Shown here in pieces: positions 24,371 to 57,646 of a stretch of 64,000 nucleotides of DNA. The translations under genes and the position numbers were made by a program. Source of the DNA: a virus; IMG/VR virus record IMGVR_UViG_3300035698_018653, positions 32,001-96,000 of that record; one strand, given 5' to 3'. The number at the start of each line of letters is the position of its first letter. Position 1 is the stretch's first letter. The notes beneath the pieces are model-generated. The model worked only from the letters and a program-made list of their open reading frames with translations, ran no database searches and had not been told where the DNA came from.

Positions 24371-24870
24371 AAGATACGATTTTTATTCATTATGGTCATA
24401 ATGAATTTAATAAGAGTAAATTTCAAAATATAAGTAATGATGGTGCTTGGATAAAGCCCAAAGGGGGGCTATGGGGTTCTCCCATTAACTCTAGTTGGGG
24501 TTGGAAAACTTGGTGTAAAGAAAATAATTTTCAAGATGATGATTTTTCTATTTATTTTGAATTTAAATTAAATATAATATATAGCAATGTTCTTGTTATA
24601 AATTCTTATGGCGATATGCTTAAACTTCCTTGGAAAAATGTCAAATACAGTGATAAAATTAAACGTATTGATTTTGAAGAAATAAATCGATGGTATGATG
24701 CTATTTATTTAACAGAAAATGGACAAAGAGAAACACACTTACCTAAATTTACAGTTAAAGACTATAAGATTGATCATTTTAAAAATCTTTACGGGTGGGA
24801 TTGTGAAAGTGTATTAGTTATGAATCCAAATATAATAGAGGAGTTAAAAAATGAAAAGTGTTATAAGTGA
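24367..24870 (+). CDS. Hypothetical protein, possibly ADP-ribosyltransferase-like fold
   Basis: FIHYG, KPKGGLWGSP, YDAI, YGWDCES. Confidence 0.4.
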   Translation: MKDTIFIHYGHNEFNKSKFQNISNDGAWIKPKGGLWGSPINSSWGWKTWCKENNFQDDDFSIYFEFKLNIIYSNVLVINSYGDMLKLPWKNVKYSDKIKRIDFEEINRWYDAIYLTENGQRETHLPKFTVKDYKIDHFKNLYGWDCESVLVMNPNIIEELKNEKCYK

Positions 24871-26071
24871 TGTTGTAAATGGAAGTCATCTTCCAATAAA
24901 ATTATGGTTAGATAAAGACAAGATAGAAGAAAAAGCATTAGAGCAAGCAAAGAATTTAGCAAGACTCCCTTTTGCTTTTCGTCATATAGCAATTATGCCT
25001 GATGCTCATGTTGGTTATGGAATGTGTATTGGCGGTGTCGTAGCATGCAAAGGTGTAATAATTCCCTATGCTGTTGGTTATGATATTTCATGTGGTATGA
25101 TAGCTGTTAAAACTTCTTTAAAAGAAATAGATAAAGAAACCATAAAGAAAATATTTGGAGGAAGTAGTAAGTATAAGGGAGGGATAAGAAGTTGTATTCC
25201 GGTAGGTAGGGGTCATCATAGTAAAGCACAAGATGAAAGATTTATGCCCAGTGAAGAAATGTTTATGCCTGATTTTCATAACGAAAGAAGTATTTGCGAA
25301 GAGCAATATCAATCTGCTAGAAAACAAGTAGGCACTATGGGGTCAAATAATCATTTCATAGAAATACAAAAAGGAGATGATGGATATATTTGGATTATGA
25401 TTCATTCTGGAAGTAGAAATATAGGATATAGAGTTGCTGATCATTATAATAAAATTGCCGTTAAGTTAAATGAAAAATATTATTCTCAAGTTCCTAAGAG
25501 TTGGCAATTAGCTTACCTTCCTTTAGATTCAAAAGAGGGGCAAAGGTATAAAAAAGAAATGGAGTACTGTATCGAGTTCGCTAATTGTAATAGACAATTA
25601 ATGATGGAAAGAGCAAAAGAATGTTTTAATGAAATAGTTCCAGAAGTAGAATTTACAAATATAACAAATATAGATCATAATTATGCTTCTATGGAGAATC
25701 ATTTTGGTGAAAACGTAATGGTTCATAGAAAGGGGGCTACATTAGCGAGAGCAGGAAAGACCGGAATTATACCTGGTAGTATGGGCACGAAAAGTTATAT
25801 AACCGAAGGACTTGGTAATCCAGAAAGTTTTATGAGTTGCTCTCATGGTGCTGGTAGGGTTTTAAGTAGAACTAAGGCAAAGGAAGATTTAAATTTAAAT
25901 GAAGAAAAAAAGAAGATGGACGATAAGGGAATTATACACAGTATAAGAAATATAAAAGATTTAGAAGAAGCGTCATCAGCTTACAAGAATATTGACGAGG
26001 TAATGGAGAATCAAAAAGACCTCGTAAAGATACTAGTAACTTTAAGTCCACTAGCAGTTATAAAAGGCTAA
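24851..26071 (+). CDS. rtcB: RtcB RNA ligase
   Basis: PDAHVG, DISCG, NHFIE, HSGSR, HNY, HRKGA, PGSMG, SHGAGR, AYK, IKG. Confidence 0.95.
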   Translation: MKSVISDVVNGSHLPIKLWLDKDKIEEKALEQAKNLARLPFAFRHIAIMPDAHVGYGMCIGGVVACKGVIIPYAVGYDISCGMIAVKTSLKEIDKETIKKIFGGSSKYKGGIRSCIPVGRGHHSKAQDERFMPSEEMFMPDFHNERSICEEQYQSARKQVGTMGSNNHFIEIQKGDDGYIWIMIHSGSRNIGYRVADHYNKIAVKLNEKYYSQVPKSWQLAYLPLDSKEGQRYKKEMEYCIEFANCNRQLMMERAKECFNEIVPEVEFTNITNIDHNYASMENHFGENVMVHRKGATLARAGKTGIIPGSMGTKSYITEGLGNPESFMSCSHGAGRVLSRTKAKEDLNLNEEKKKMDDKGIIHSIRNIKDLEEASSAYKNIDEVMENQKDLVKILVTLSPLAVIKG

Positions 26072-27013: not shown

Positions 27014-27625
27014 ATGGTTCCAAAAATAAGTAAATGGAAAATAGCGTTTTATATTATTGGTAGTCTTATTGGAATAATAGGAGTTGTTTTTATTCTTGAA
27101 TTAGCAGGACTTGGCTTCATGAAATTCTTTGAACCAAAGAAAGAAAACATTAGGAGGGAAATATTTGAGAATACAAAGTCATACAGTCATGGCAAGATGC
27201 AGGATTTAGCAAAACAGGCACTAAGTGAAGCACAGAGACAAATTGGAATGCCCAATATAGTTAATTTTCAACAAAGAAAATTACTAAAGGGAATTCTTGA
27301 GCTTTGCGACAAAGAGAAACTTATTTGTTTTGCTTATTTGAAAAGTGATTATACCGGTAAATTAATCTTTATTGGAAAATGTATTGGTTACGGAATTCCT
27401 TTTAGTGCTCAGTTTACAAATCCAGATAAAGTTAAAACTGTAGACGGCGGACAATACAGGGCGAGAAACCCATATACGCTTCCGCAAGCAGATCCTAATG
27501 GATTATTTATGCCCACTTCCAGTAGTGCTACCTGGCTTATTATGATTGACCCCAAAACAAGTAAGCCACGAGCAGTATATATTGAACCCGAAATTGTAGT
27601 GTCACCTTTCCCTCTTCATAAATAA
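27014..27625 (+). CDS. Membrane-anchored phage protein, apparent two-gene fusion
   Basis: N-terminal TM plus RREIFENTKSY; C-terminal GMPNI...YGIP...TNP...PQADPNGLF. Confidence 0.55.
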   Translation: MVPKISKWKIAFYIIGSLIGIIGVVFILELAGLGFMKFFEPKKENIRREIFENTKSYSHGKMQDLAKQALSEAQRQIGMPNIVNFQQRKLLKGILELCDKEKLICFAYLKSDYTGKLIFIGKCIGYGIPFSAQFTNPDKVKTVDGGQYRARNPYTLPQADPNGLFMPTSSSATWLIMIDPKTSKPRAVYIEPEIVVSPFPLHK

Positions 27626-27634
27626 GGAATAAAT

Positions 27635-29788
27635 ATGAAGTGTCCGCTTTGTACAAAAGAAAAGGATTATGAAGAGGAATCTCTTTGTTGTGACGATTGC
27701 AGCACTAAGATAATAAAAGCAGCCAAAGATGTATCGCCATCTACCGATACAGATGAAGTCAGCCCATTGATAAATGATTTAAGGGAACTTTATAATCAAA
27801 TAAAGAATAGCGGAGAGTCAGTAGATGATCAGATGATAGAATTGCTTAAATTACGTGTTGAGATGATTACTTTAATTTGGTAAGGAGAAATATAATGCCA
27901 AAGAAAATAGTAAAAGACAAAGAAAAGAAAGCGATTTCAAAAGAGCAGAAGGAAATCAATAATCTCAAGGTAGAACTTCAGGAAGCAAACGACAAGATAG
28001 AAGATCTATATAAAAGGTATAAAAAGTTTGACGTTATTGAAGAGCGCCTTTATAAAAACGACAAACTTGACAATAAGATGATGGAAGCCATTAATGAATT
28101 CTGCCATCACTTAGGCAAGTATGAGTTTGCAGTAAAGAGGGAGAAATAAGTTATGGAAATAAGGTATTATAATTCAAATGGAGCTATTGAAAAGACTGAA
28201 ATTACTTCCAAGCGTGAGGCAGCAGCGTTCCTTTCCATCCTTTCATTAGAGGTTAAGGAACTTTCTTCTCAGGTAGATTTAGAAGAGGTATTTCAAAAGA
28301 TCATGGAAGCTGTTGGCAAGAATAGTTTAATGCTTAATCAGAATGTTGAAATACTTAGTATATTGACCGACTATGTTAATGGTGACGCCGAAGTCCTCTC
28401 ACTCCTTGAGGAGATAGACAAGAAAATAGATTTGCCTCAAGAGAAAGTAAAAAAGGAAAAAGCTGCCGATGATGATTTTCTTGACGAGGACGAAGATGAA
28501 GATCCACCACCTAAAAAGCAAGCCAAGAAAAAGGCAAAAGAGGAAGATGATGATTTCGAGGAAGAAGAGGAAACGGGTGGTGCTGCAGATGCCGATGACG
28601 ACGTAACGAATCAGGCTAATGCTGTTGATGTCGCAGAAGATAGGAGAGCTAATTTACATAGGAAAAAGACAGAAGCGGCAACTCATCGTTTTGAAACAGA
28701 ACTTAAGAATAAAAAAAAGAAAGGTAAGAAAAAATGATTACTGTAATTGAAGTAAAAGGGATAGATGAAGGTTGTGTTAGTTTTCAAGTAGTAGGTATAA
28801 TTACAATGGGAAAATTGAAGGGGGTAGCATATAGTTCAAATTCAACGGGAAATGAAGAAGGGAAAAGAAGTAAATATAAAAATATAGAAAACGGCAGAGG
28901 ATTTATACTTTCATATCCAATTCAAATAGCTTCTTTATTTAAAATAAAAGATAGACTGTATACAGAAAAGACAGAGCAAGAAATTGTGGATGCCATAAAC
29001 AATAAAGAAGTTCCTTTTGAATTGAAATTGGAGATAAGAGAATAATGCCTAAATCAAAAGCAGCAAGGATATTTGATGAGTATAAGGAACTTGAAAGATT
29101 TCTTAAATTAGAAGAGGTTCCGCTTAAGCTTGTCAATATTGAAATGACAATTACCGAAAGAATAAAGTGGGTGATAGGTAGAAAAAGAGGTGTTGAATTT
29201 ACTATTGGTGAGTTAATGAAAGAGAGAGTTGAAGATTATGAATTAAGAAATAAGAAAATGAAGGAAGGTGTAAGTTCGACTACCGGTGGAGAGGAAGTAA
29301 AACAAGTTGGGGTAAAGGAAGAAAAGAAAGAGCTTACAGAAGAAGAAATAGAAAAACTCCCCATAATACAAAGACCAGATAAAAAACCAGAAGAGAAAGT
29401 TGAATTTCTTTTTAAAGAAATAATGAATAACTTAGAATTTCCACAACAACGTGGTTTTGATTATATTAATATTATTTTTGGTGTATTTATGGCAGATGAT
29501 GGAAATTTATTTCTAGTTATGGCCAAAGAAAATTATTATAAACATGGTGTAAAGGAAGTAAGTTTTAATATTGGAAGTTTTCTTACGTTTTGGAAGTTAG
29601 ATAAAATTGCAGAAATGTTTCGACATACCGTTATTAAAAAGGATGATTTTTCTTCCCTTGAAGGAATGTGGTTTGACAAAGAGGGTGGTGATATAAAAAT
29701 GATAATATCGTGTTTTACAAATCCTGATCAAAATGATCCACAGGACTTAGGTGAAGAAGATGATTATGGGACTACAAAATTTATTTAA
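27635..29788 (+). other. Run of hypothetical CDS (27635, 27877, 28153, 28734, 29045); 28153 has acidic/basic low-complexity tracts
   Basis: Closely packed co-oriented ORFs; no recognisable catalytic motifs. Confidence 0.55.
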
Positions 29789-29797
29789 AATATATAA

Positions 29798-29826
29798 TTC
29801 AATTGTAAAATAACAGCGTATATTAT
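29798..29826 (+). promoter_or_regulatory. Putative promoter TTCAAT-N17-TATTAT
   Basis: CGTATATTAT at 29817-29826, intergenic. Confidence 0.6.
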
Positions 29827-29887
29827 TAATAACGGGCTACCTCAGAGAGGTTGGCTGAAGTACAGTAAAGAAGTACAGAAGTAAGTT

Positions 29888-29959
29888 GTTCTTTGAAAAG
29901 CGGGGAGAAACAAAATAGTATTTAATTTAGCTATTTTGATTGCCTATTTCTCCCCGCTT
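29888..29959 (+). ncRNA. boxA-like element followed by a long hairpin
   Basis: GTTCTTTGAAAA at 29888-29899; 13-bp stem AAGCGGGGAGAAA/TTTCTCCCCGCTT plus 8-bp inner stem CAAAATAG/CTATTTTG. Confidence 0.55.
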
Positions 29960-30110
29960 CTTAATCTTTAAAAAAGGGACTGAATTTGATAATGACTATG
30001 AAGCGAAATAAGGAGTTTTCCTTACAATGAGCAATAAACTACTAGAAAGTACATATAATCGCTTAAACCGTCCTGTTTGGCGCTCAAAACAGCTATAATA
30101 AGGAGTTGAT

Positions 30111-30356
30111 ATGTCTAAAGTGAAGGTATTTGTTACCTGTACTGTTCCGAAGTTAGGGGATATGGAAGTAAGTGAACGAATTTTAGTTAATAAAAAGGAT
30201 GTTGAATTTTTTACTTTACAAAAGATATTAAGGGAAAAATACAAAGACAAAAGAACGGTAATTGGAATTGGAGTATATAATAAAGCAGGCGATAAACAAG
30301 TGCCGCTTGAAGAAGTGAAGAAAATACAAAAGAAAAAGAAAGCATTAATATTATAA
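30111..30356 (+). CDS. Hypothetical protein
   Basis: AAGGAG RBS, 81 aa. Confidence 0.55.
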   Translation: MSKVKVFVTCTVPKLGDMEVSERILVNKKDVEFFTLQKILREKYKDKRTVIGIGVYNKAGDKQVPLEEVKKIQKKKKALIL

Positions 30357-30708
30357 ACAATTGAAACTATACAAAATCAGGAAAGTAGCATTTAAACTAA
30401 ATAAGGGAGGTTGTAATGGCTAATAAAAAAGAAGCATCAATAAAGAGAGAAAAAATAACCTTAAGAGTATGTACTTTAGATTTAAACGATGATGAGTTTT
30501 GGGGCCAACTTGTGAGCGTAGGGGCAAAATAGACTTTATATTTGACAATAAGAACCTCCAGCCACAATGGGGTGCATGTAATTCACCGGATACGTGTAAA
30601 TATAGTGCATATAAAAAAGGAGTGTTAGTGTTACGGGTAGGGGAAGTATAAGTAAATTTACAATTATAATTGAGAAAAATGTTCTTAAAGATATAAGCTC
30701 TTTGAAAA

Positions 30709-31035
30709 TTTATGTGGGAGGCGCCGTACTATAGGTGAAAGTGATGAATTTGTCTATAGCACAACGCCCCCGAACTTGTGATTCGGGGTAGCAACTAAAC
30801 CGTAACCTGTTCTGAATTTCTAAAAGTATAGTGGTAATCACCCACCAGGGGCTTTTAAAGCTATATGTTTTTTCAGCGACGTATTCCAACGTCATTATAC
30901 ATATGGCCAGTTCAGTCATTGGCTACGATAAAGTAAGCGCCATTCAGTCAAGAGGTTTGTCAATAAATACTGCATGATTGGCCTCCTTTGCATTATTAGT
31001 ACGGTGACGGAAAGCGTCTGCGCCTCCCACATAAA
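30709..31035 (+). ncRNA. Unassigned 327-nt multi-stem structured RNA preceded by boxA-like GCTCTTTGAAAA
   Basis: Perfect 16-bp terminal stem TTTATGTGGGAGGCGC/GCGCCTCCCACATAAA, nested stem CCGTACTA/TAGTACGG, several internal hairpins, no + strand ORF. Confidence 0.7.
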
Positions 31036-31064
31036 AATTTTATAAAAAAACAGGAGAAATTAAC

Positions 31065-32865
31065 ATGAAATTATCTAGAGAAGAAAATTATAAGAGATAT
31101 AAAAAGGTAACAATGTTAGCGAGAATAATTAGGTCTGGTAGAAAATTGAGTAAAGATAATTTAAAGTTTTACGACAAAGAAGTAGAAAGAATAAGAAAAC
31201 ATAGGGAAGAATCAGATAAGATTAAGTGGGAAAATTACGATAAAGACATAAAAGGGCTTTCAAAAAAGTTTAAAAGATTAGATAGGGCAATATCAAAAAA
31301 TGACGCATTAGAGTCTATAAAAATAATACGAGATATACTAGTGATCGATGTAGATTTTGGAGGTTTTTGTGAAAGATGAACAGTTAGATAAAGCGATTAA
31401 TTAATATTATAAATAATACAAAGGAGCGTATTAAATGAATCAAAACGACCTGATCAACATGAACAAAGAAATAATTTCTGTAATGAAGGATATGTTAACC
31501 TTTATAAATCATAGATCAAATTGCCAGATGGTTATGTATGCTGCATTCGAAGGTCAGAAGTGCGATTGTGGATATGACAATCTCATTAATCAATTAAAGA
31601 AATTGAAAAAGGAAGCCGAGTAATGAGCAGAACAAAATTTATTAAGATAGACTATACTTGCGATGTAGATGCACTAGGGCATAAAGAGTGTGATGAGAAA
31701 TTAGAAACCGCTTGTAATACCTCATCGAAGTGTGACAAGGAAGCGAAAGAGAAAGGGTGGTATCTGGGATATAAGTATACTGGGGGCGAAAGAGTGCCGG
31801 TGACGTTATGCCCTAAACATGCAAATTTAATTCATGTGCCCAAAAGAGTAAATAGAGAGGGAAATATATATCTTTATGAAGAGGGAGATTATCTTGCCAA
31901 GGTAAAGGTAATTGATGATCTAAGCAATAGAACATCTGACAATAACTTTTCTTTCTGTTTAAAGATTCTTGTTATCATAAGGCAAGTAAAAGATATGAGT
32001 CATTTGGGACCAGGAGATATGTTTAATGTAATAAAGAGAGTAAAAGACAGAAAGAGTTGGAAGCTTAAACCGATAAAAATATTTAGCAGAAGACAGAACC
32101 CGTCAAAGGAAGGTGCCATAATATGATAAAGGATATAATTTTTAATACGCTATATAATGAGCTTAGAGATATAGAGGCCAATAAAACATTATGTCTTTTG
32201 GCCTTAAAAGAAAAAGCTAAGTTAGCGGCAAAGAAAATAGAGATTGCTATTTGGAAGGAATTCTTTTCTGATAATATAGACGAAAGAATTAAAAGTCAGT
32301 TTGATGAATCATGGAGCTACCTTAACAAGCATAATGTACCCGCTCAAGTATTCTATCCGAAAGAGGGATATAAGAGTCTGACATTAAGGGAAAGGATTGA
32401 GTGGTTTATTATAACAGAAGGACTGGAAGAGCATCAGTTAGATATAAAAAACAAAAAAGACTTAAACAATTTAATTGATAAAGTAAGAAGCAAGATAAAG
32501 GAGAATGAAAAGTGAAAATGGATTGGAAGAAAAGTGAAGCAGAGAATTATTTTGATATTTCTTTAGATGGTAGTTTTTGCCTAGCTGGAACAATTATTCT
32601 TAATAAAAAAGAAGTTGTAGAGATGATGAAAATCTGTAATTATATAATTAATGAAGAGCATAAAGGAACAAGAAATAAAATTGGAGAATGTTTTGGATTT
32701 AATGTAAGGGAGCTAATAGATGATGTTATTGAATATAAAGAAAATCAAAACGTAAAGGTAACAGGGCATATTGAATGTAAGTGTGGAAAATCACAATTTA
32801 TCGAAAGAACAATTTATAAATCAGAACAAGATATAAACGAAACAGAAATTTATTTGTATACGTAA
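31065..32865 (+). other. Run of small hypothetical CDS (31065, 31435, 31623, 32123, 32512)
   Basis: Co-oriented ORFs with AGGAG RBS or overlapping start/stop codons. Confidence 0.55.
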
Positions 32866-49353: not shown

Positions 49354-51648
49354 GTGGCTCAAAGACGACAATTTAAATCGATTGAACGCCAGCTTCTTAC
49401 AAATGAAGTATTGCTGGAGAAAGATACATTTCAATTTCTACAGCGCTCTGAAAAATCTGTTTTAAAAAAGTTCGACAAACTTTTTACTCCCTCCTATTTA
49501 AATACACTCCGTAGTAAAACAAAAAGCACAAAAAAAAGTATTGTTGACAGAATAGATGTTTCTGAAATTCATTGCGCTTCTGTAATATATTCTTTTAGTA
49601 TTCCCCATATAGCCAAAGAGTTTTTAAAGGCAGAAGATAAACTTTCTGTAATTGCCTCTATAGATACAGATTTGTTTAGAGAAGATCTGGATAAAGCTTT
49701 TATTGATAATTATAATCTTGGTGGAACAGAGGTATATAAAGAATTTGATATTGGTTTTAATTTTAATCTTGTAGATAAAGATGCCATTGCTTTTGGTGAA
49801 GCATATAATCTTCAAATTTCTAATCAAATAGGAGATCAATTAAGTGGACAGATAAAGGAAAGTGTACTTGAAGGCGTTAAAGAAGGTGAAGGAATACCAA
49901 AGATAAGAAGAAGAATACAAGAGTCATATAATAAAGGGCTTCAAGTAAAAGTTCCCGCTACCGAAATTCCAGCTAAGTTAGATGCTAATGGAAAAGTAAT
50001 TAGAGCTGGTTTTACCAGAAGCGCATATACTTTTGATATTCCCCCAAGTATGTATGCCTCTATGATAGCAAGAAGTGAAACATCACGCTGGTATAATGAA
50101 GGAAGAATTATTGCGTACGAACAAAGCGGAGTAGTTAAGGGTGTTGAATTAGCTACTGCCGGGGATGATCGCGTTTGTGAAGATTGTTCAGAGTATGAAG
50201 GGCAAAGATATTCTTTAGAAGAATCGAGGGGAATAATTCCATTACACGCACTATGTTTTATTGATGGGCAAGCAAAAGTTGAAACTCTTAATGGTAAAAA
50301 GAAAATAATGGATATAAAGGTTGGAGATAAAGTGCTCACTCATAAAGGGAGATATAAAAAGGTATTAAGAGTTTATAATCAATATCAATTAGGTAAAGAT
50401 GACCCTTATGTTAAAATACATTATAATTTTAGTAATTGGAAAGAGAGTAGAAAAAAACCTATATCTGTAACCGAAGAGCACCCATTTTTAGTTTTGAGAA
50501 ACGGCAAGAAACAGTGGGTTCATGCTGGATGTTTAAAAGAGACAGATGAGGTAACTATGCTTGCTAAAAAGTGTAGGGGCTGCGATAAATTAATTCCAGA
50601 GATTGCCAGAAATGAATATTGTACACAATCTTGTGGGAGTAATAAAACAACTAAGGAACAATATAAAGACCCTAATCAAAGGATTTTGAGAAGAGAAAAT
50701 GCAAAGAGGCAAATGAAAAGAGAAGATAGAAAGAATAATTGGAGTAAAGAAAAGAAAGCGGCAGGAACAGCTGCGGCAAGAAAGGTTGTTGAGGGGAAAT
50801 ACGCAAGAGGTGAGATGTGGTGTCAAAACGAGGGGAGATATTTTTTAGGCGAGTATATGAAAAATGAATGGAAAAATAATAAAGAGTATCGAGAGAAAAT
50901 GATGGATTACCTAAAGAATAGAAATCCATCATATACAAAAGAGAGTAGGAAAAAACATAGTAAGTTTATGAAAGAATACTATAAAAAGTATCCAGAAAAA
51001 CACCCCAACAGAAGTTTTTATAAAAATAAATTAAACAAGTTAGAGAAGAAATTTTATGACGCATTAGTTGACAGAGGGTATTTCTGGGCAGAGCATAACT
51101 ATGGAGTTCTTAATTGTCATATTGATTTTGCCTTACCTGATTTAAAAATAGGAATTGAATGTGACGGAAGGTATTGGCATCAGGATAAAAATGGAAAACT
51201 AAAGAAGATCGATATTGATAGGCAGAAAAAAATAGAAAAAGAAGGTTGGACAATTTTAAGGTTTTGGGATGACGAGATAAACGAAGACGTTTCAAAGTGT
51301 ATAGATAAAGTTGAAAGGTTGGCTACAAATCATTCTAATGAATATAAATTTATTAATTGTAAAATAACAAAGATAGAATACCTTAAGATTAAAAAAACAA
51401 AAAAAATATATAACTTAGAAGTTGAAGATGACAATAGCTATATTATAAACGGTATGGTTGTTCATAATTGCAGATGCACTTGGCTTCCAATATTGATTGG
51501 CGAGACAAATCCAAGAACATTTAGGGGTAATAAATTGACAATGCCAAGCAGGGTAAGAACCAAAGCGCAAAAGAATATTAACGATGCAGTTAAGAAAGCA
51601 ACCACAAAAGTTGAAACAAAAACCAAAAAATCCCGCCCGGTTTTATAG
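49354..51648 (+). CDS. MuF / SPP1 gp7-like head morphogenesis protein with intein
   Basis: IARSET, DDRVCEDC, IPLH..CRC split by the intein; follows the portal. Confidence 0.9.
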   Translation: MAQRRQFKSIERQLLTNEVLLEKDTFQFLQRSEKSVLKKFDKLFTPSYLNTLRSKTKSTKKSIVDRIDVSEIHCASVIYSFSIPHIAKEFLKAEDKLSVIASIDTDLFREDLDKAFIDNYNLGGTEVYKEFDIGFNFNLVDKDAIAFGEAYNLQISNQIGDQLSGQIKESVLEGVKEGEGIPKIRRRIQESYNKGLQVKVPATEIPAKLDANGKVIRAGFTRSAYTFDIPPSMYASMIARSETSRWYNEGRIIAYEQSGVVKGVELATAGDDRVCEDCSEYEGQRYSLEESRGIIPLHALCFIDGQAKVETLNGKKKIMDIKVGDKVLTHKGRYKKVLRVYNQYQLGKDDPYVKIHYNFSNWKESRKKPISVTEEHPFLVLRNGKKQWVHAGCLKETDEVTMLAKKCRGCDKLIPEIARNEYCTQSCGSNKTTKEQYKDPNQRILRRENAKRQMKREDRKNNWSKEKKAAGTAAARKVVEGKYARGEMWCQNEGRYFLGEYMKNEWKNNKEYREKMMDYLKNRNPSYTKESRKKHSKFMKEYYKKYPEKHPNRSFYKNKLNKLEKKFYDALVDRGYFWAEHNYGVLNCHIDFALPDLKIGIECDGRYWHQDKNGKLKKIDIDRQKKIEKEGWTILRFWDDEINEDVSKCIDKVERLATNHSNEYKFINCKITKIEYLKIKKTKKIYNLEVEDDNSYIINGMVVHNCRCTWLPILIGETNPRTFRGNKLTMPSRVRTKAQKNINDAVKKATTKVETKTKKSRPVL
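50254..51468 (+). mobile_element. Intein (405 aa) carrying a Zn finger and a Vsr/DUF559-type endonuclease
   Basis: Block A CFIDG, block B VTEEHPF, block F YNLEVED, terminal HN followed by C+1; internal IDFALPDLKIGIECDGRYWH...GWTILRFW. Confidence 0.9.
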
Positions 51649-55369: not shown

Positions 55370-57646
55370 ATGAGTCTAAAAGATAGCGAAATAAAAAACT
55401 TTCAAGATGGAAGCACGAGTGTTAAAGACGGTGACATAAAGAACACTAGTGATTACCCAGTTGATCCTATTACAGCTGACCTGAACGTCCCAGACACCCT
55501 TGAGCAGTCATTTGGAAAGCAGTTCAGTAAGATTCCCTACGTTAAAAGAAAAAAGATGCTTGCAGACAAAAGGAATTTATATGCTCCTACCCAGGGAGTA
55601 ATGATTAGACAAGATGAAACCAACTTATATTTAGCGATTGATAAGAAATTTCTCAAGAACCTACAGCCGAGAGATATTGCCGCTTACGTATCTATTGCCG
55701 CTTCAGGATTCTTTACAAATAGTTTTAGCGATATATCGAAGTATAAAGTAAATAACAGAGATGGTTGTGCAATATTCATGAAAAATGTAGTTCACTATAG
55801 TGGTGGCAGATATTGCGCTTTACTCTGGGCACACATAATGGCTTCGCTCATGAAGGTGACAATCTTTACAAATATGAAGCCACCTTTTATAAAAGATTTT
55901 GAGCATATGCCATTTAAAGAAAATATACAGTGGGCTGTTGACGGAAGACTTGGAATGCATCTAAAGAAAAATGATTTTAAATTTACTTTAGGGATTCCTA
56001 ATGATGTAGGACAAGCGGCAATTACTTATTCTGAGAAATGGAATATACCTTGCTATATGACAATATTTGAATCACCCAATTTTGTAAGAGAGTATCGCAG
56101 AGGAATAGATTCAGAGGAAAAGTTTTGGGTTGAGTATAAAAAATGTATGAAAAAAGCAGATGGTATTATAGGAATATCCAATATAAGTGGAAGTAAGGCA
56201 AAAGAATGGATAGAGGCCGATGGAGTAAAGTGTCCGCCTGTTGAAATTATATATCCACCACTTAATCAGCCTATCGCAGATATGGTTGTAGATAAAGATA
56301 TTCACGAAGCAAATGAGATTTGTTATATAAGTAGAATGACCGGATATAAAAACCCTCTTTTAATGATAAAGGATATATGCAAACTAAGACAACCGCCTGA
56401 CGTAATTAATCTAATAGGGCGTGCAGCCGGAGGTACGGTCAATGAAATAAATAAAATGAATAAGCAATACAAGGGTAGAGTAAAGATAAAAATATATGAA
56501 GCGGTAAGCGATATAGAAAAATTTATTATCCTTAAGAGAAGTAAGTTGATTGTATTTCCTTCGACATTTGAGGGCTTTGGAATGTCGCCAATGGAAGGAT
56601 TTTATATGAGTAAGCCGGTTATCGCTTATGACCTGCCAGTACTTAGAGAGGTATATGGTAATCATATAAATTATGTTCCGGTAAACGATTCTAAAAAATT
56701 AGCGAAAGAAGTTGAAAAACTTTTGGAAGATAAAAAAGAGAGAGAGAGATTGGGCGAAGCAGGAAGAGCTCACGTAATAAGATGGTGTTTATATGATATG
56801 TGTCGTGACAGAATAAAGGAAGTATTTCCTATATCTAAAAAGCTTTCCTTATCTGTTGGCACTATCGTACTTAATGGCGCTGAGTGGATTAAACTAGGAT
56901 TGAAAACTATCTATCCAAAAGCAAAAGAAATCATAATTGTTGAGGGCGCTGTTGAGGACTACGCAAAGAATAATCCAGATATGGTAAAAGACGGATGTCA
57001 TTCTATAGATAATACTGTTGAGATAATTAAGAATTTTCCTGACCCTGAAAATAAGATAAAGTTTTTTGCTTGTAACGGAAGTCCTTGGCAGAACAAACAA
57101 GAGATGCAGAATAAGATAGCAGAAAATATAACTGGTGACATATTCCTCAAGCAAGATAGTGACGAATGTTATCTACATAAAGATGTTGATAGAATTGTAA
57201 ATGAATTCGAAAGTGACCCTGACCTTTTTATATTTAGGTATAAGTTCAATCACTTCTGGCATAGCTTTAAACAAATAGCGATAGGCGGACAATGGGAAAG
57301 CAAGATGGTCAGGTGTTGGAGATGGAGAGATGACTTCAGATATCAGGGTAGAAGTTTTAATGTTATGGTAGATAAGGAAGGCAAGTCAGTTGATAGGCCA
57401 AATTATAAAGTAAAAGAAGTTGACGATAGACTTGTATTTCATATGTCATATGTAAGCAAGAAACCAGAAATGATTCGTGCAAAATTAAATTACTATAAAA
57501 ATAGAGGAATAGAAACAAACGTAAAAGATACTTACACCGGATGGAAGCGGGGCAATCCCACACAGCCCACGGCCGGAGGTGGTACCGTTAAGGCTTTTGC
57601 CGGAGAGATGCCGAAACTTTTAACAAGGATAGCTGATGAATACTAA
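55370..57646 (+). CDS. Bifunctional glycosyltransferase (GT4 + GT2 fusion)
   Basis: FPSTFEGFGMSPMEG...PVIAYD (GT4); SVGTIVLN, IVEGA, QDSDE (GT-A). Confidence 0.88.
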   Translation: MSLKDSEIKNFQDGSTSVKDGDIKNTSDYPVDPITADLNVPDTLEQSFGKQFSKIPYVKRKKMLADKRNLYAPTQGVMIRQDETNLYLAIDKKFLKNLQPRDIAAYVSIAASGFFTNSFSDISKYKVNNRDGCAIFMKNVVHYSGGRYCALLWAHIMASLMKVTIFTNMKPPFIKDFEHMPFKENIQWAVDGRLGMHLKKNDFKFTLGIPNDVGQAAITYSEKWNIPCYMTIFESPNFVREYRRGIDSEEKFWVEYKKCMKKADGIIGISNISGSKAKEWIEADGVKCPPVEIIYPPLNQPIADMVVDKDIHEANEICYISRMTGYKNPLLMIKDICKLRQPPDVINLIGRAAGGTVNEINKMNKQYKGRVKIKIYEAVSDIEKFIILKRSKLIVFPSTFEGFGMSPMEGFYMSKPVIAYDLPVLREVYGNHINYVPVNDSKKLAKEVEKLLEDKKERERLGEAGRAHVIRWCLYDMCRDRIKEVFPISKKLSLSVGTIVLNGAEWIKLGLKTIYPKAKEIIIVEGAVEDYAKNNPDMVKDGCHSIDNTVEIIKNFPDPENKIKFFACNGSPWQNKQEMQNKIAENITGDIFLKQDSDECYLHKDVDRIVNEFESDPDLFIFRYKFNHFWHSFKQIAIGGQWESKMVRCWRWRDDFRYQGRSFNVMVDKEGKSVDRPNYKVKEVDDRLVFHMSYVSKKPEMIRAKLNYYKNRGIETNVKDTYTGWKRGNPTQPTAGGGTVKAFAGEMPKLLTRIADEY

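What the first reader, a model, noticed from the sequence alone, without database searches (positions are those of the whole stretch)
30697..31035. Unassigned 327-nt structured RNA with a boxA-like leader and a 16-bp closing stem
Seen: GCTCTTTGAAAA (30697-30708) is followed at once by a perfect 16-bp helix (30709-30724 with 31020-31035). This encloses a nested helix CCGTACTA/TAGTACGG, a 3' hairpin GACG-GAAAG-CGTC, and internal hairpins CCCCGAA/TTCGGGG, GACGT/ACGTC, GGCCA/TGGCT and TAAAAGT/GCTTTTA. The region is more GC-rich than its flanks and has no + strand ORF. I could not find tmRNA, RNase P, SRP, 6S or group I/II intron hallmarks. Inference: a stable phage ncRNA, transcribed with rrn-like antitermination and cut out at the long stem, possibly a new class.
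Basis: partly seen in the sequence, partly recalled or inferred. Interest (0 to 1): 0.8.

Follow-up and report, generated by a model that had tools for sequence, protein, structure and literature searches.

The report
Orphan phage RNA with rRNA-style leader
A gene-free 340-base stretch of an uncultured salt-lake phage is laid out like a miniature ribosomal-RNA precursor (a keep-transcribing signal followed by a long helix joining both ends), so it is probably a non-coding RNA, but it has no known relatives and its job is unknown.

Summary
The sequence features are real. A perfect 16-bp helix (30709-30724/31020-31035) stacks on a 7-bp helix and closes about 265 nt. No helix this long and GC-rich arose in 0 of 100 simulated genomes.

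The 12-mer in front matches published rrn boxA consensuses. The 5' arm carries a boxC-like GUGGG, as in the E. coli 16S leader.

The element is non-coding by codon usage. It is GC-enriched. It matches no Rfam family.

The "ornate" interior is not shown. Without the closing helices the + strand folds no better than shuffles (z -0.92).

No homologue exists anywhere searched, and three of three neighbouring proteins tested by homologue search are orphans. Covariation, expression and processing are therefore untested.

Best reading (about 50%): a + strand RNA module made with rrn-type antitermination and a leader-trailer helix, probably cut out there. Rivals are a purely cis-acting processing or leader element, an invertible promoter switch, minus-strand micro-ORFs, and a mobile-DNA relic.

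This scan has noted boxA-plus-closing-stem phage RNAs before on other DNA. I found two more such phages.

The parts
29887..29899 (+). First boxA-like motif (TGTTCTTTGAAAA) of the same gene-poor stretch
   Evidence: It is one of only two + strand YTCTTTGAAAA copies in the 127-kb record.
29898..29959 (+). 62-nt hairpin directly abutting boxA-1: a 13-bp GC-rich stem plus an 8-bp inner stem, followed by a U-rich tail
   Evidence: One search found the 13-bp perfect repeat. In one search the 29830-29985 stretch folds with z -3.53, and 0 of 200 shuffles do as well.
30670..30697 (+). Sigma-70-like site TTGAGA-16-TATAAG whose -10 box ends on the first base of boxA-2
   Evidence: one of 3 sites scoring at least 10 of 12 in 27 intergenic gaps (4861 nt). 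It is a consensus match only. If used, the transcript would start about 4-6 nt before the helix and would lack boxA.
30697..30708 (+). boxA-like motif GCTCTTTGAAAA
   Evidence: It matches the E. coli consensus UGCUCUUUAACA and the B. subtilis consensus AUGAUCUUUGAAA (PMC13753749 passages). It matches the E. coli rrsH leader boxA at 15 of 17 and the spacer boxA at 12 of 13.
30709..30724 (+). 5' arm of the 16-bp closing helix; contains UAUGUGGG, which resembles boxC (UCUGUGUGGG)
   Evidence: pair probability 0.92; the arm is unique in the genome. The boxC sequence and its place in the 5' strand of the leader-trailer helix come from PMC10250234 passages.
30725..30731 (+). 5' arm of the stacked 7-bp helix (CGTACTA)
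   Evidence: pair probability 0.84.
30732..30996 (+). Enclosed interior of 265 nt; GC-enriched, non-coding, with several local hairpins
   Evidence: z -0.92; composition; codon log-likelihood -0.01 for the + frame and -0.03 for the - frame, against 0.18 +/- 0.12 for real small genes.
30982..30989 (+). CCTCCTTT, an anti-Shine-Dalgarno-like 8-mer. Read on the - strand it is a Shine-Dalgarno site 6 nt before an ATG.
   Evidence: this is the only + strand CCTCCTT in 127 kb (15 on the - strand); 0.0045 copies are expected from the element's own composition. The motif was picked post hoc.
30997..31003 (+). 3' arm of the 7-bp helix (TAGTACG)
31006..31018 (+). Small hairpin GACG-GAAAG-CGTC inserted between the two 3' arms, making a three-way junction
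   Evidence: pair probability 0.93.
31020..31035 (+). 3' arm of the 16-bp closing helix
31052..31379 (+). Shine-Dalgarno site AGGAG and the 104-codon lysine/arginine-rich gene that begin 17 nt after the helix
   Evidence: The codon score of 0.20 is gene-like. It has no homologue apart from itself and no Pfam family.

Best explanation
The element is a non-coding RNA module read on the + strand. It forms part of the polycistronic transcript that crosses the gene-poor stretch 29.8-31.1 kb.

Proposed mechanism:
1. The boxA-like 12-mer at its 5' edge loads the host NusB-S10 / Nus-factor antitermination complex onto RNA polymerase.
2. As proposed for pre-16S rRNA, the tethered leader keeps the boxC-like 5' arm near the RNA exit. 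It pairs with the 3' arm as soon as that arm is made.
3. [quoted passage not shown]
4. The roughly 23-bp duplex is then a natural substrate for a double-strand RNase (RNase III type). Cleavage would release an RNA of about 300 nt and separate the upstream and downstream messages.
5. What the released RNA does is unknown.

Shown: the sequence anatomy, its non-chance nature, non-coding status, the resemblance to rrn leaders, and the absence of any catalogued family or relative.

Inferred: strand, Nus loading, helix formation in vivo, cleavage, stability, and any trans function.
For: - The helix is beyond chance. 0 of 100 simulated genomes had a repeat of at least 16 bp with at least 9 G-C pairs. 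A further 7 perfect pairs stack on it.
- boxA-like 11-mers are rare and placed alike. There are 2 + strand copies in 127 kb, 810 nt apart, and each directly abuts the G-rich 5' arm of a long GC-rich stem.
- The motif fits published boxA consensuses for E. coli and B. subtilis (passages of PMC13753749).
- The run boxA-TTTAT-GTGGG parallels the E. coli rrsH leader read. The two best multi-base matches of the element to the whole rrnH operon are its two boxA sites.
- boxC lies in the 5' strand of the leader-trailer helix. The tethering model is described in PMC10250234 (passages).
- The exact 12-mer occurs 5 times, all forward, in two other phage records (controls: 0 forward, 1 reverse). By my reading of the printed flanks, 4 copies lie 17-28 nt after sigma-70-like promoters. 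In 3 of the 5, a 13-23-pair long-range helix enclosing 75-129 nt follows, next to tRNA genes.
- Orientation: 139 ORFs of at least 100 aa lie on + and 20 on -. No + strand terminator-like site occurs in 29700-31500.
- Non-coding: the frames score like spurious ORFs, and the 69-aa frame has no relatives.
- Composition: GC is in the top 3.0% of windows, and the purine excess typical of this phage's genes is absent.
Against: - The interior alone is not more stable than shuffles on the + strand (z -0.92, 33 of 200). The - strand folds somewhat better (z -2.17; whole element -6.38 against -4.28).
- All 23 closing pairs are Watson-Crick with no G-U. They therefore carry no strand information and fit a DNA-level repeat equally well.
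- The best promoter-like site nearby (30670-30697) would start transcription inside boxA.
- boxA touches the helix with no spacer. E. coli has 18-19 nt between boxA and boxC, and the other phages have 50-128 nt.
- No relative was found in any collection, so there is no covariation test.
- The host is unknown, so its own boxA could not be compared.
- No RNase III gene lies in the 127 kb held, so the host enzyme would have to act.
Confidence: 0.5

Rival explanations
1. The element is a purely cis-acting RNA element on the + strand. The long helix would be an intercistronic processing, stability or translation-control site, or a nut-like antitermination site, for the 104-codon basic protein gene that starts 30 nt downstream. 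The interior would have no function of its own. This resembles the RNase III sites between phage T7 early genes, or the large RNase III hairpin between nutL and the N gene of lambda (both recalled from the literature, not checked here).
For: - The interior is not more structured than shuffles.
- The helix ends 17 nt before a good Shine-Dalgarno site and a gene-like ORF.
- There is no + strand terminator after the helix, so transcription continues into the gene.
- boxA-1 is likewise followed by a plain hairpin and then by genes.
Against: - A processing site does not need a 265-nt, GC-enriched interior in a phage whose genes are otherwise tightly packed.
- Known sites of this kind are simple hairpins of about 50-100 nt (recalled).
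- The three-way junction with an extra hairpin is unexplained.
Confidence: 0.17
2. The element is an invertible DNA switch. The 16-bp perfect inverted repeats would be recombination sites flanking a 295-bp segment. A promoter-like site on the - strand (TAGACA-17-TATAGT, 30756..30728) would, after inversion, face the downstream genes just ahead of the right repeat. The assembled orientation would be OFF.
For: - A perfect 16-bp repeat with no G-U pairs flanks 295 bp directly upstream of a gene.
- A 10-of-12 promoter-like match lies inside on the opposite strand.
Against: - No serine or tyrosine recombinase was found in the 127 kb held. The record is about 74% complete, and a host enzyme could act.
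- Promoter-like matches are not enriched here: 12 found against 7.8 +/- 3.1 expected.
- Contigs of four runs show only the assembled orientation. One 1004-nt contig spans the whole element, others cross each repeat, and no joints were reported. Depth is only about 4, and contigs drop rare variants.
- The switch model does not explain the boxA/boxC-like leader, the second nested helix or the junction hairpin.
Confidence: 0.08
3. The element is a minus-strand expression unit. AAAGGAGG-N6-ATG would open a 19-codon frame (30975..30916), joined by an ATGA overlap to a 69-codon frame (30919..30710). This would be a small antisense gene pair, such as a toxin-like or moron cassette, bracketed by the repeats.
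For: - It holds the only - strand AAGGAGG of the whole record.
- The site has good spacing to an ATG, the two frames overlap stop to start, and together they fill most of the interior (my reading of the sequence).
- The - strand folds slightly better.
Against: - The codon score of the 69-codon frame is -0.03. This is like spurious - strand ORFs (0.03 +/- 0.11) and unlike real small genes (0.18 +/- 0.12).
- A search of 1.84 billion representatives gave one marginal 20-residue match (E 7.2e-4) and nothing else.
- The second frame has no Shine-Dalgarno site of its own.
- Nearly all coding is on the + strand.
- The only candidate - strand promoter lies 370 nt away, inside or behind the 104-codon gene.
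Confidence: 0.06
4. The element is a relic of mobile or foreign DNA: a MITE-like element with 16-bp terminal inverted repeats, inserted in an intergenic region and now functionless.
For: - It has terminal inverted repeats, a GC content unlike its flanks, and a possible short AAAATTT-like duplication at both edges.
Against: - It is single-copy. The arms are unique in the 127-kb record.
- There is no further copy in the phage, plasmid, viral-contig or metagenome collections. All 3 viral and all 69 metagenome pattern hits were unrelated DNA matching only 16-19 nt.
- The apparent duplication is itself palindromic and simply extends the helix (pair I6).
- No contig lacks the element.
Confidence: 0.05

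Closest known systems
Bacterial rrn operon leader and spacer: boxA (with boxC) plus the leader-trailer helix that brackets pre-16S and pre-23S rRNA (rrn antitermination complex of NusA/B/E/G, SuhB and S4; RNase III processing)
   Same: - A boxA-type 12-mer sits on the transcribed strand. It shares GCUCUUU with E. coli and CUUUGAAA with B. subtilis.
- A G-rich boxC-like GUGGG lies in the 5' strand of a long helix formed with sequence several hundred nt downstream.
- The motif recurs twice in one transcription unit, as in leader plus spacer.
   Different: - It encloses 265 nt of unknown RNA, not rRNA. There are no rRNA hits, and blastn-short matched only short motifs.
- The helix is 16+7 bp, against 25-40 bp.
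- boxA abuts the helix with no spacer.
- It sits in a phage, between protein genes.
- Nus binding, antitermination and cleavage are untested.
Phage stable-RNA arrays headed by the same boxA 12-mer
   Same: - An identical GCTCTTTGAAAA lies on the forward strand in non-coding leaders.
- Long-range closing helices of 13-23 pairs surround small RNAs.
   Different: - Those arrays sit next to tRNA genes and contain T-loop-like mini-RNAs.
- Their helices start 50-128 nt after boxA and enclose only 75-129 nt.
- There is no sequence similarity to this element (one 14-nt match, E 0.67).
Large phage- or prophage-associated non-coding RNAs without known function: GOLLD, ROOL (Rfam) and the two RNA-seq-supported long non-coding RNAs of Staphylococcus phage K (PMC9241854, passages)
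   Same: - An intergenic, non-coding, GC-enriched island in an AT-rich phage of the broad group whose portals resemble Herelleviridae.
- The phage K RNAs also lack any Rfam family.
- One phage K RNA also carries sense-strand CCTCCTTT motifs that are otherwise absent from the minus-transcribed left arm of that genome, by my reading of the hit positions.
   Different: - This element is much smaller (about 330 nt, against about 600-1150 nt).
- It has no Rfam hit to GOLLD or ROOL even at E up to 10.
- It has no sequence similarity to the phage K RNAs.
- The phage K RNAs have no boxA of this type.
- Expression is shown for phage K and not here.
Lambda nut sites and the N-leader RNase III hairpin
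   Same: boxA is followed by a hairpin, then a small basic protein gene. Processing of a large leader hairpin by RNase III is plausible.
   Different: - There is no small boxB-type hairpin.
- The 104-codon protein has no detectable relation to N or any other family.
- The helix encloses hundreds of nt.

Membership tests
rrn-type antitermination leader with leader-trailer helix | boxA sequence matching the consensus on the transcribed strand | tested here: met
   GCUCUUUGAAAA compared with E. coli UGCUCUUUAACA and B. subtilis AUGAUCUUUGAAA. It matches the E. coli leader boxA region at 15 of 17 and the spacer boxA at 12 of 13.
rrn-type antitermination leader with leader-trailer helix | Long helix between sequences flanking the enclosed RNA, with a boxC-like element in its 5' strand | tested here: met
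   16+7 perfect pairs, with 0 of 100 simulated genomes matching. UAUGUGGG compares with boxC UCUGUGUGGG. The helix is shorter than the 25-40 bp reported for Enterobacteriaceae.
rrn-type antitermination leader with leader-trailer helix | boxA lies downstream of the promoter, within the transcript | tested here: inconclusive
   The nearest promoter-like site would start inside boxA. An upstream site at 29784-29811 scores only 9 of 12. There are no transcript data.
rrn-type antitermination leader with leader-trailer helix | Encloses ribosomal RNA | tested here: not met
   No rRNA family hit in the window or in 30500-31200 at E up to 10. Only motifs of 7-17 nt are shared with E. coli rrnH.
rrn-type antitermination leader with leader-trailer helix | NusB-S10 binding, antitermination, RNase III cleavage | not testable with these tools
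   These need biochemistry or transcript-end mapping. The host is unknown.
Any Rfam 15 family (including tmRNA, RNase P, 6S, SRP, group I/II introns, GOLLD, ROOL, OLE, Y RNA, riboswitches) | Covariance-model score at or near the gathering threshold | tested here: not met
   One search returned only four tRNAs, all elsewhere in the window. One search returned one match, U7 at 19.5 bits against a threshold of 34 (E 0.1), on the boxA region. ARAGORN found no tRNA or tmRNA there.
Invertible promoter switch (inverton) | Inverted repeats flanking a promoter-bearing segment | tested here: inconclusive
   The repeats are present. The internal - strand promoter-like site scores 10 of 12, but such sites are not enriched.
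Invertible promoter switch (inverton) | Site-specific recombinase, and both orientations present in reads | tested here: not met
   There is no Resolvase or Phage_integrase match in the 127 kb held. Only one orientation and no joints appear in the contigs of 4 runs. These were low-depth contigs rather than raw reads, so this is weak.
MITE / small non-autonomous transposon | Multiple copies with the same terminal repeats; target-site duplication | tested here: not met
   It is single-copy in the record. No real copy was found in the viral, metagenome, phage or plasmid collections. The flanking AAAATTT-like match is itself palindromic.
Retron msr-msd RNA | Adjacent reverse transcriptase | tested here: not met
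   No RVT_1 match in the record. The downstream gene encodes a 104-aa protein of no known family.
Bacterial Y RNA (Ro60-associated, often near RtcB) | Ro60/TROVE partner and the Y RNA model | tested here: not met
   No TROVE match and no Rfam hit. RtcB is present 4.6 kb upstream.

The most novel reading that the evidence does not exclude
The element is a phage-made decoy of a 16S rRNA precursor. It has a boxA/boxC leader, a leader-trailer helix, and a CCUCCUUU anti-Shine-Dalgarno sequence placed just before the trailer strand. That placement matches the 16S 3' end (GGAUCACCUCCUUA, then trailer).

Once processed, the RNA would either present a free anti-SD tail that soaks up Shine-Dalgarno-led messages, or it would occupy the factors that mature the 16S 3' end.

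Two observations keep this open:
- The motif is the only sense-strand copy in the 127-kb genome.
- An abundantly expressed long non-coding RNA of Staphylococcus phage K carries the only two sense-strand copies in its own transcription arm.

This hints at a wider class of anti-SD-bearing phage RNAs.
Probability: 0.06. Interest if true: 0.85.

Novelty: new variant of a known kind. Interest (0 to 1): 0.42.

Why it matters
If the reading holds, this is one more case of a phage borrowing the cell's rRNA-making signals (boxA and a leader-trailer helix) to make an RNA that is not ribosomal. It comes from a very isolated phage lineage in a salt lake.

I found no description of that design in print. 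Two full-text searches returned only work on cellular rrn operons, lambdoid phages and CRISPR or suhB boxA sites.

The design would give a simple, searchable signature for finding phage non-coding RNAs that covariance-model libraries miss.

On its own, this example adds little. It has no relatives, no expression data, and an interior whose fold is not statistically distinguishable from chance.

Tried and rejected
Known RNA families
- Rfam at gathering thresholds over the whole window returned only four tRNAs elsewhere.
- Rfam at E up to 10 on 30500-31200 returned only a sub-threshold U7 match on the boxA region.
- ARAGORN found no tRNA or tmRNA there.

Search for relatives (all negative)
- blastn of 30600-31100 against 50,697 phage records: no match.
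- blastn of the element against 72,556 plasmids: no match.
- Neighbouring 247-aa protein and the portal protein in viral contigs: 27 and 2 pattern hits, none confirmed.
- Homologue searches with the 104-aa, 247-aa and 81-aa neighbours: each found only itself.
- Exact patterns from the left end of the element: 3 viral loci and 69 metagenome loci. All matched only 16-19 nt, and by my reading of the printed flanks almost all lay in coding DNA of high-GC organisms.
- Pattern from boxA-1 plus its stem: 24 viral loci, all unrelated.
- RtcB in genome contigs: 10 loci. Of the 3 I compared (L005, L006, L014), no other protein of this phage's core genes matched: RtcB itself, plus one short match of the intein-bearing 764-aa protein to L006. 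They are not relatives, and no host could be inferred.
- DNA and pattern searches of those three genomes gave only chance or coding hits.

Sequencing runs
- 8 salt-lake DNA runs hold the stretch, and no RNA holder is listed.
- Contigs of 4 runs are identical to the window. No variants, gaps or joints were seen, and parts of the stretch had no cover in some runs.

Partner enzymes
- No RVT_1, TROVE, RNase III, Resolvase or Phage_integrase match in the 127 kb held.

Other checks
- Interior compared with the E. coli rrnH operon: only short motifs are shared.
- Element compared with the phage K long non-coding RNA regions: no similarity.
- The upstream spacer 30533-30708 is unstructured (z +0.42).
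- Pfam and PHROGs on ten neighbouring proteins gave nothing above threshold.
- I did not build a covariance model.
- A full-text search for the 11-mer returned 37 papers; none of the 20 listed bears on boxA by title or abstract.

Papers and how much I saw
- Read as passages through the find mode only: PMC13753749, PMC10250234 and PMC9241854.
- All other papers were seen only as search listings.
- Supplements are closed. Fig. S1 of PMC13753749 (B. subtilis leader alignment) and Tables S3/S4 of PMC10250234 (boxC conservation and spacing) could refine the comparison.
- The lambda nut / N-leader and T7 RNase III comparisons are recalled, not checked.
Full report
**Setting.** The window is bases 32001-96000 of a 126,906-bp IMG/VR phage record, estimated 74% complete and 33% GC.
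- Coding is almost entirely on the + strand: 139 ORFs of at least 100 aa on +, 20 on -.
- The window carries a portal, a capsid protein, an intein-bearing Mu-F-like protein, RtcB and four tRNAs.
- The portal is only about 24% identical to portals of cultured phages. Most hits are Staphylococcus and Bacillus phages: 501 records, all under 60% identity.
- DNA runs labelled salt lake metagenome hold the stretch.

**Observation.**
- The 5' side is one unbroken 23-nt strand, 30709-30731.
- The 3' side is split into TAGTACG (30997-31003) and the 16-nt arm (31020-31035) by a 16-nt insert holding the hairpin GACG-GAAAG-CGTC. The closure is therefore a three-way junction.
- Four more weak pairs with one bulge can extend the helix outward (pair I6).
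- The helix is not a chance event. Of 100 first-order-Markov copies of the genome, 8 had some perfect repeat of at least 16 bp within 600 nt, and 0 had one with at least 9 G-C pairs. A first run of 20 copies gave 5 with any repeat of at least 16 bp. The arms occur nowhere else in the record.
- The element has 43.1% GC against a genome mean of 33.1% (top 3.0% of windows). It lacks the purine excess of this phage's coding strand (0.498 against 0.591, lowest 1.7%).

**The claimed rich internal structure does not pass the control.**
- The whole 349 nt folds far better than shuffles on both strands (z -4.28 and -6.38).
- With the closing helices removed, the + strand interior gives z -0.92, and 33 of 200 shuffles do as well. 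The - strand gives z -2.17, with 5 of 200.
- The internal hairpins exist but are what a 43%-GC sequence gives by chance.
- Many real RNAs also fail this test, so it weakens the "ornate RNA" picture without excluding it.

**Non-coding status.**
- The + strand 48-codon frame and the - strand 69-codon frame score -0.01 and -0.03 on a codon-usage log-likelihood trained on 100 long genes of this phage.
- That is like spurious - strand ORFs (0.03 +/- 0.11, n=128) and unlike real small genes (0.18 +/- 0.12, n=92).
- The flanking 81-, 38- and 104-codon genes score 0.19-0.26.
- The 69-aa frame has one marginal partial match (E 7.2e-4) among 1.84 billion representatives.

**The leader.**
- YTCTTTGAAAA occurs three times in the window against 0.33 expected. 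On the + strand it occurs only twice in the whole record, at 29889 and 30698.
- Both copies lie in the one gene-poor stretch. Each directly abuts the G-rich 5' arm (GGGAG) of a long GC-rich stem. The first stem is a 62-nt hairpin (13+8 bp) followed by a U-rich tail; the stretch 29830-29985 that holds it folds with z -3.53.
- A 2026 paper gives the boxA consensuses as UGCUCUUUAACA for E. coli and AUGAUCUUUGAAA for B. subtilis rrn leaders, and shows NusB binding for the latter (PMC13753749, passages). The phage motifs AGCUCUUUGAAAA and UGUUCUUUGAAAA share GCUCUUU with the first and CUUUGAAA with the second.
- I read the E. coli rrsH leader directly. It runs TGCTCTTTAACAA-TTTAT-(12 nt)-GTGGGCAC, against the phage's AGCTCTTTGAAAA-TTTAT-GTGGGAGGCGC.
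- In a short-word BLAST of the element against the whole rrnH operon, the two longest matches are the leader boxA (15 of 17) and the 16S-23S spacer boxA (12 of 13). The E-values themselves are uninformative.
[quoted passage not shown] They describe the model in which boxA, held by NusB, keeps boxC at the RNA exit until the trailer appears (PMC10250234, passages).
- The phage element reproduces that layout in miniature.

**Independent examples.**
- Scanning viral contigs for the exact 17-mer (boxA plus TTTAT) gave five loci. By reading the flanks, three look like coding-region coincidences. Two (L104, L108) lie just after consensus promoters at the head of tRNA and small-RNA arrays.
- The two records behind them carry GCTCTTTGAAAA five times, always forward. 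The reversed control pattern matched 0 times forward and once in reverse.
- By my reading of the printed flanks, four copies sit 17-28 nt after TTGACA-type promoters and one sits after a tRNA.
- In three of the five, a long-range helix of 13-23 pairs enclosing 75-129 nt follows.
- This supports the view that the 12-mer is a working signal of phage stable-RNA units. It agrees with earlier, unchecked notes of this scan on other genomes.
- It does not show that the present element is one of them. The element shares no sequence with those records.

**What it is not.**
- It matches no Rfam family, even at E up to 10, and is not a tRNA or tmRNA.
- There is no reverse transcriptase, Ro60/TROVE, RNase III or serine/tyrosine recombinase gene in the 127 kb held.
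- It is not a repeated mobile element. It is single-copy in the record, and every pattern hit elsewhere was unrelated DNA.
- It is not derived from rRNA.

**No comparative test is possible.**
- The three neighbouring proteins I searched have no homologue but themselves among 5.8 billion proteins.
- Related-locus scans with two proteins found nothing.
- The contigs of four runs are letter-identical to the window.
- Covariation, the test that would settle both reality and strand, therefore cannot be run with present data.

**Strand.**
- For +: the orientation of boxA and boxC, the orientation of essentially all genes, and the absence of any + strand terminator-like site between 29700 and 31500. 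Transcripts entering from upstream should therefore run through the element into the 104-codon gene.
- For -: a slightly better fold, and a lone Shine-Dalgarno-like AAAGGAGG followed 6 nt later by an ATG. That ATG opens 19 codons, joined by an ATGA overlap to the 69-codon frame.
- The same 8-mer read on + is CCUCCUUU. It is the only + strand CCTCCTT in the genome (0.0045 expected in the element; chosen post hoc).

**A parallel seen in passing.**
- One of the two abundant, RNA-seq-supported long non-coding RNAs of Staphylococcus phage K (PMC9241854, passages) carries two sense-strand CCTCCTTT copies. One reads TCACCTCCTTTC, which resembles the 16S 3' end printed.
- These are the only sense-orientation copies in the minus-transcribed arm of that genome.
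- This underlies the speculative "pre-16S decoy" reading. I rate it low.

**Verdict.**
- The element is real, non-coding and laid out like an rrn leader-trailer unit.
- The most likely mechanism is Nus-assisted transcription of a + strand RNA whose ends are brought together in a 23-bp duplex and probably cut there. I put this at about 0.5.
- A further 0.17 goes to the same RNA acting only in cis.
- An invertible switch (0.08), - strand micro-ORFs (0.06) and a mobile-DNA relic (0.05) remain open.
- It belongs to no catalogued family. As a single orphan sequence it cannot yet be called a new class.

Noticed in passing
window 29784-29985: The sequence runs: promoter-like site, small hairpin (CCTC-AGA-GAGG), a GAAGTACAG repeat, an exact TGTTCTTTGAAAA, then a 62-nt GC-rich hairpin followed by a U-rich tail. 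It looks like an rrn-type or nut-type leader with a terminator-like hairpin at the head of the same transcription unit. The hairpin stretch folds with z -3.53.
   Followed up: partly
L104/L112/L114/L115 (one 28.5-kb viral record) and L108/L111/L113 (one 194.6-kb viral record): Two other phages have consensus promoters followed by the identical GCTCTTTGAAAA and a shared leader of about 75 nt. After that come 13-23-pair closing helices around T-loop-like mini-RNAs, and then tRNA genes (6 in L104, 8 in L108).
   Followed up: partly
Staphylococcus phage K NC_005880.2, 37679-38832 (L142): The published abundant long non-coding RNA has no Rfam family. It holds the only two sense-strand CCTCCTTT motifs of the minus-transcribed arm, and one of them resembles the 16S 3' end. 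This may point to anti-SD-bearing phage RNAs.
   Followed up: partly
window 49354-51648: A 764-aa Mu-F-like head protein is interrupted by an intein with a DUF559/MTES_1575-type endonuclease domain.
   Followed up: no
window 30387-30421: A 35-nt ribosome-binding-site stretch ahead of the 38-codon gene matches, with 5 differences, unrelated contigs of about 6.4 kb that are much more abundant in the same runs (depth 64 and 35). It overlaps a 29-nt stretch (window 30308-30336) that matches a contig of a MAG labelled Paceibacterota.
   Followed up: no
window 24851-26071: The phage RtcB is 57-58% identical to genes on contigs of MAGs labelled Paceibacterota and Pacearchaeota. No other phage gene is shared with the Paceibacterota locus; the Pacearchaeota locus also has a short match to the phage's intein-bearing 764-aa protein.
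   Followed up: partly
record bases 27087-27156 (about 4.9 kb before the window start): This is the only other GC-rich perfect inverted repeat of the record: 14 bp with 8 G-C pairs and 42 nt between the arms.
   Followed up: no
window 55370-57646: A 758-aa protein next to the capsid gene combines family 1 and family 2 glycosyltransferase domains.
   Followed up: no
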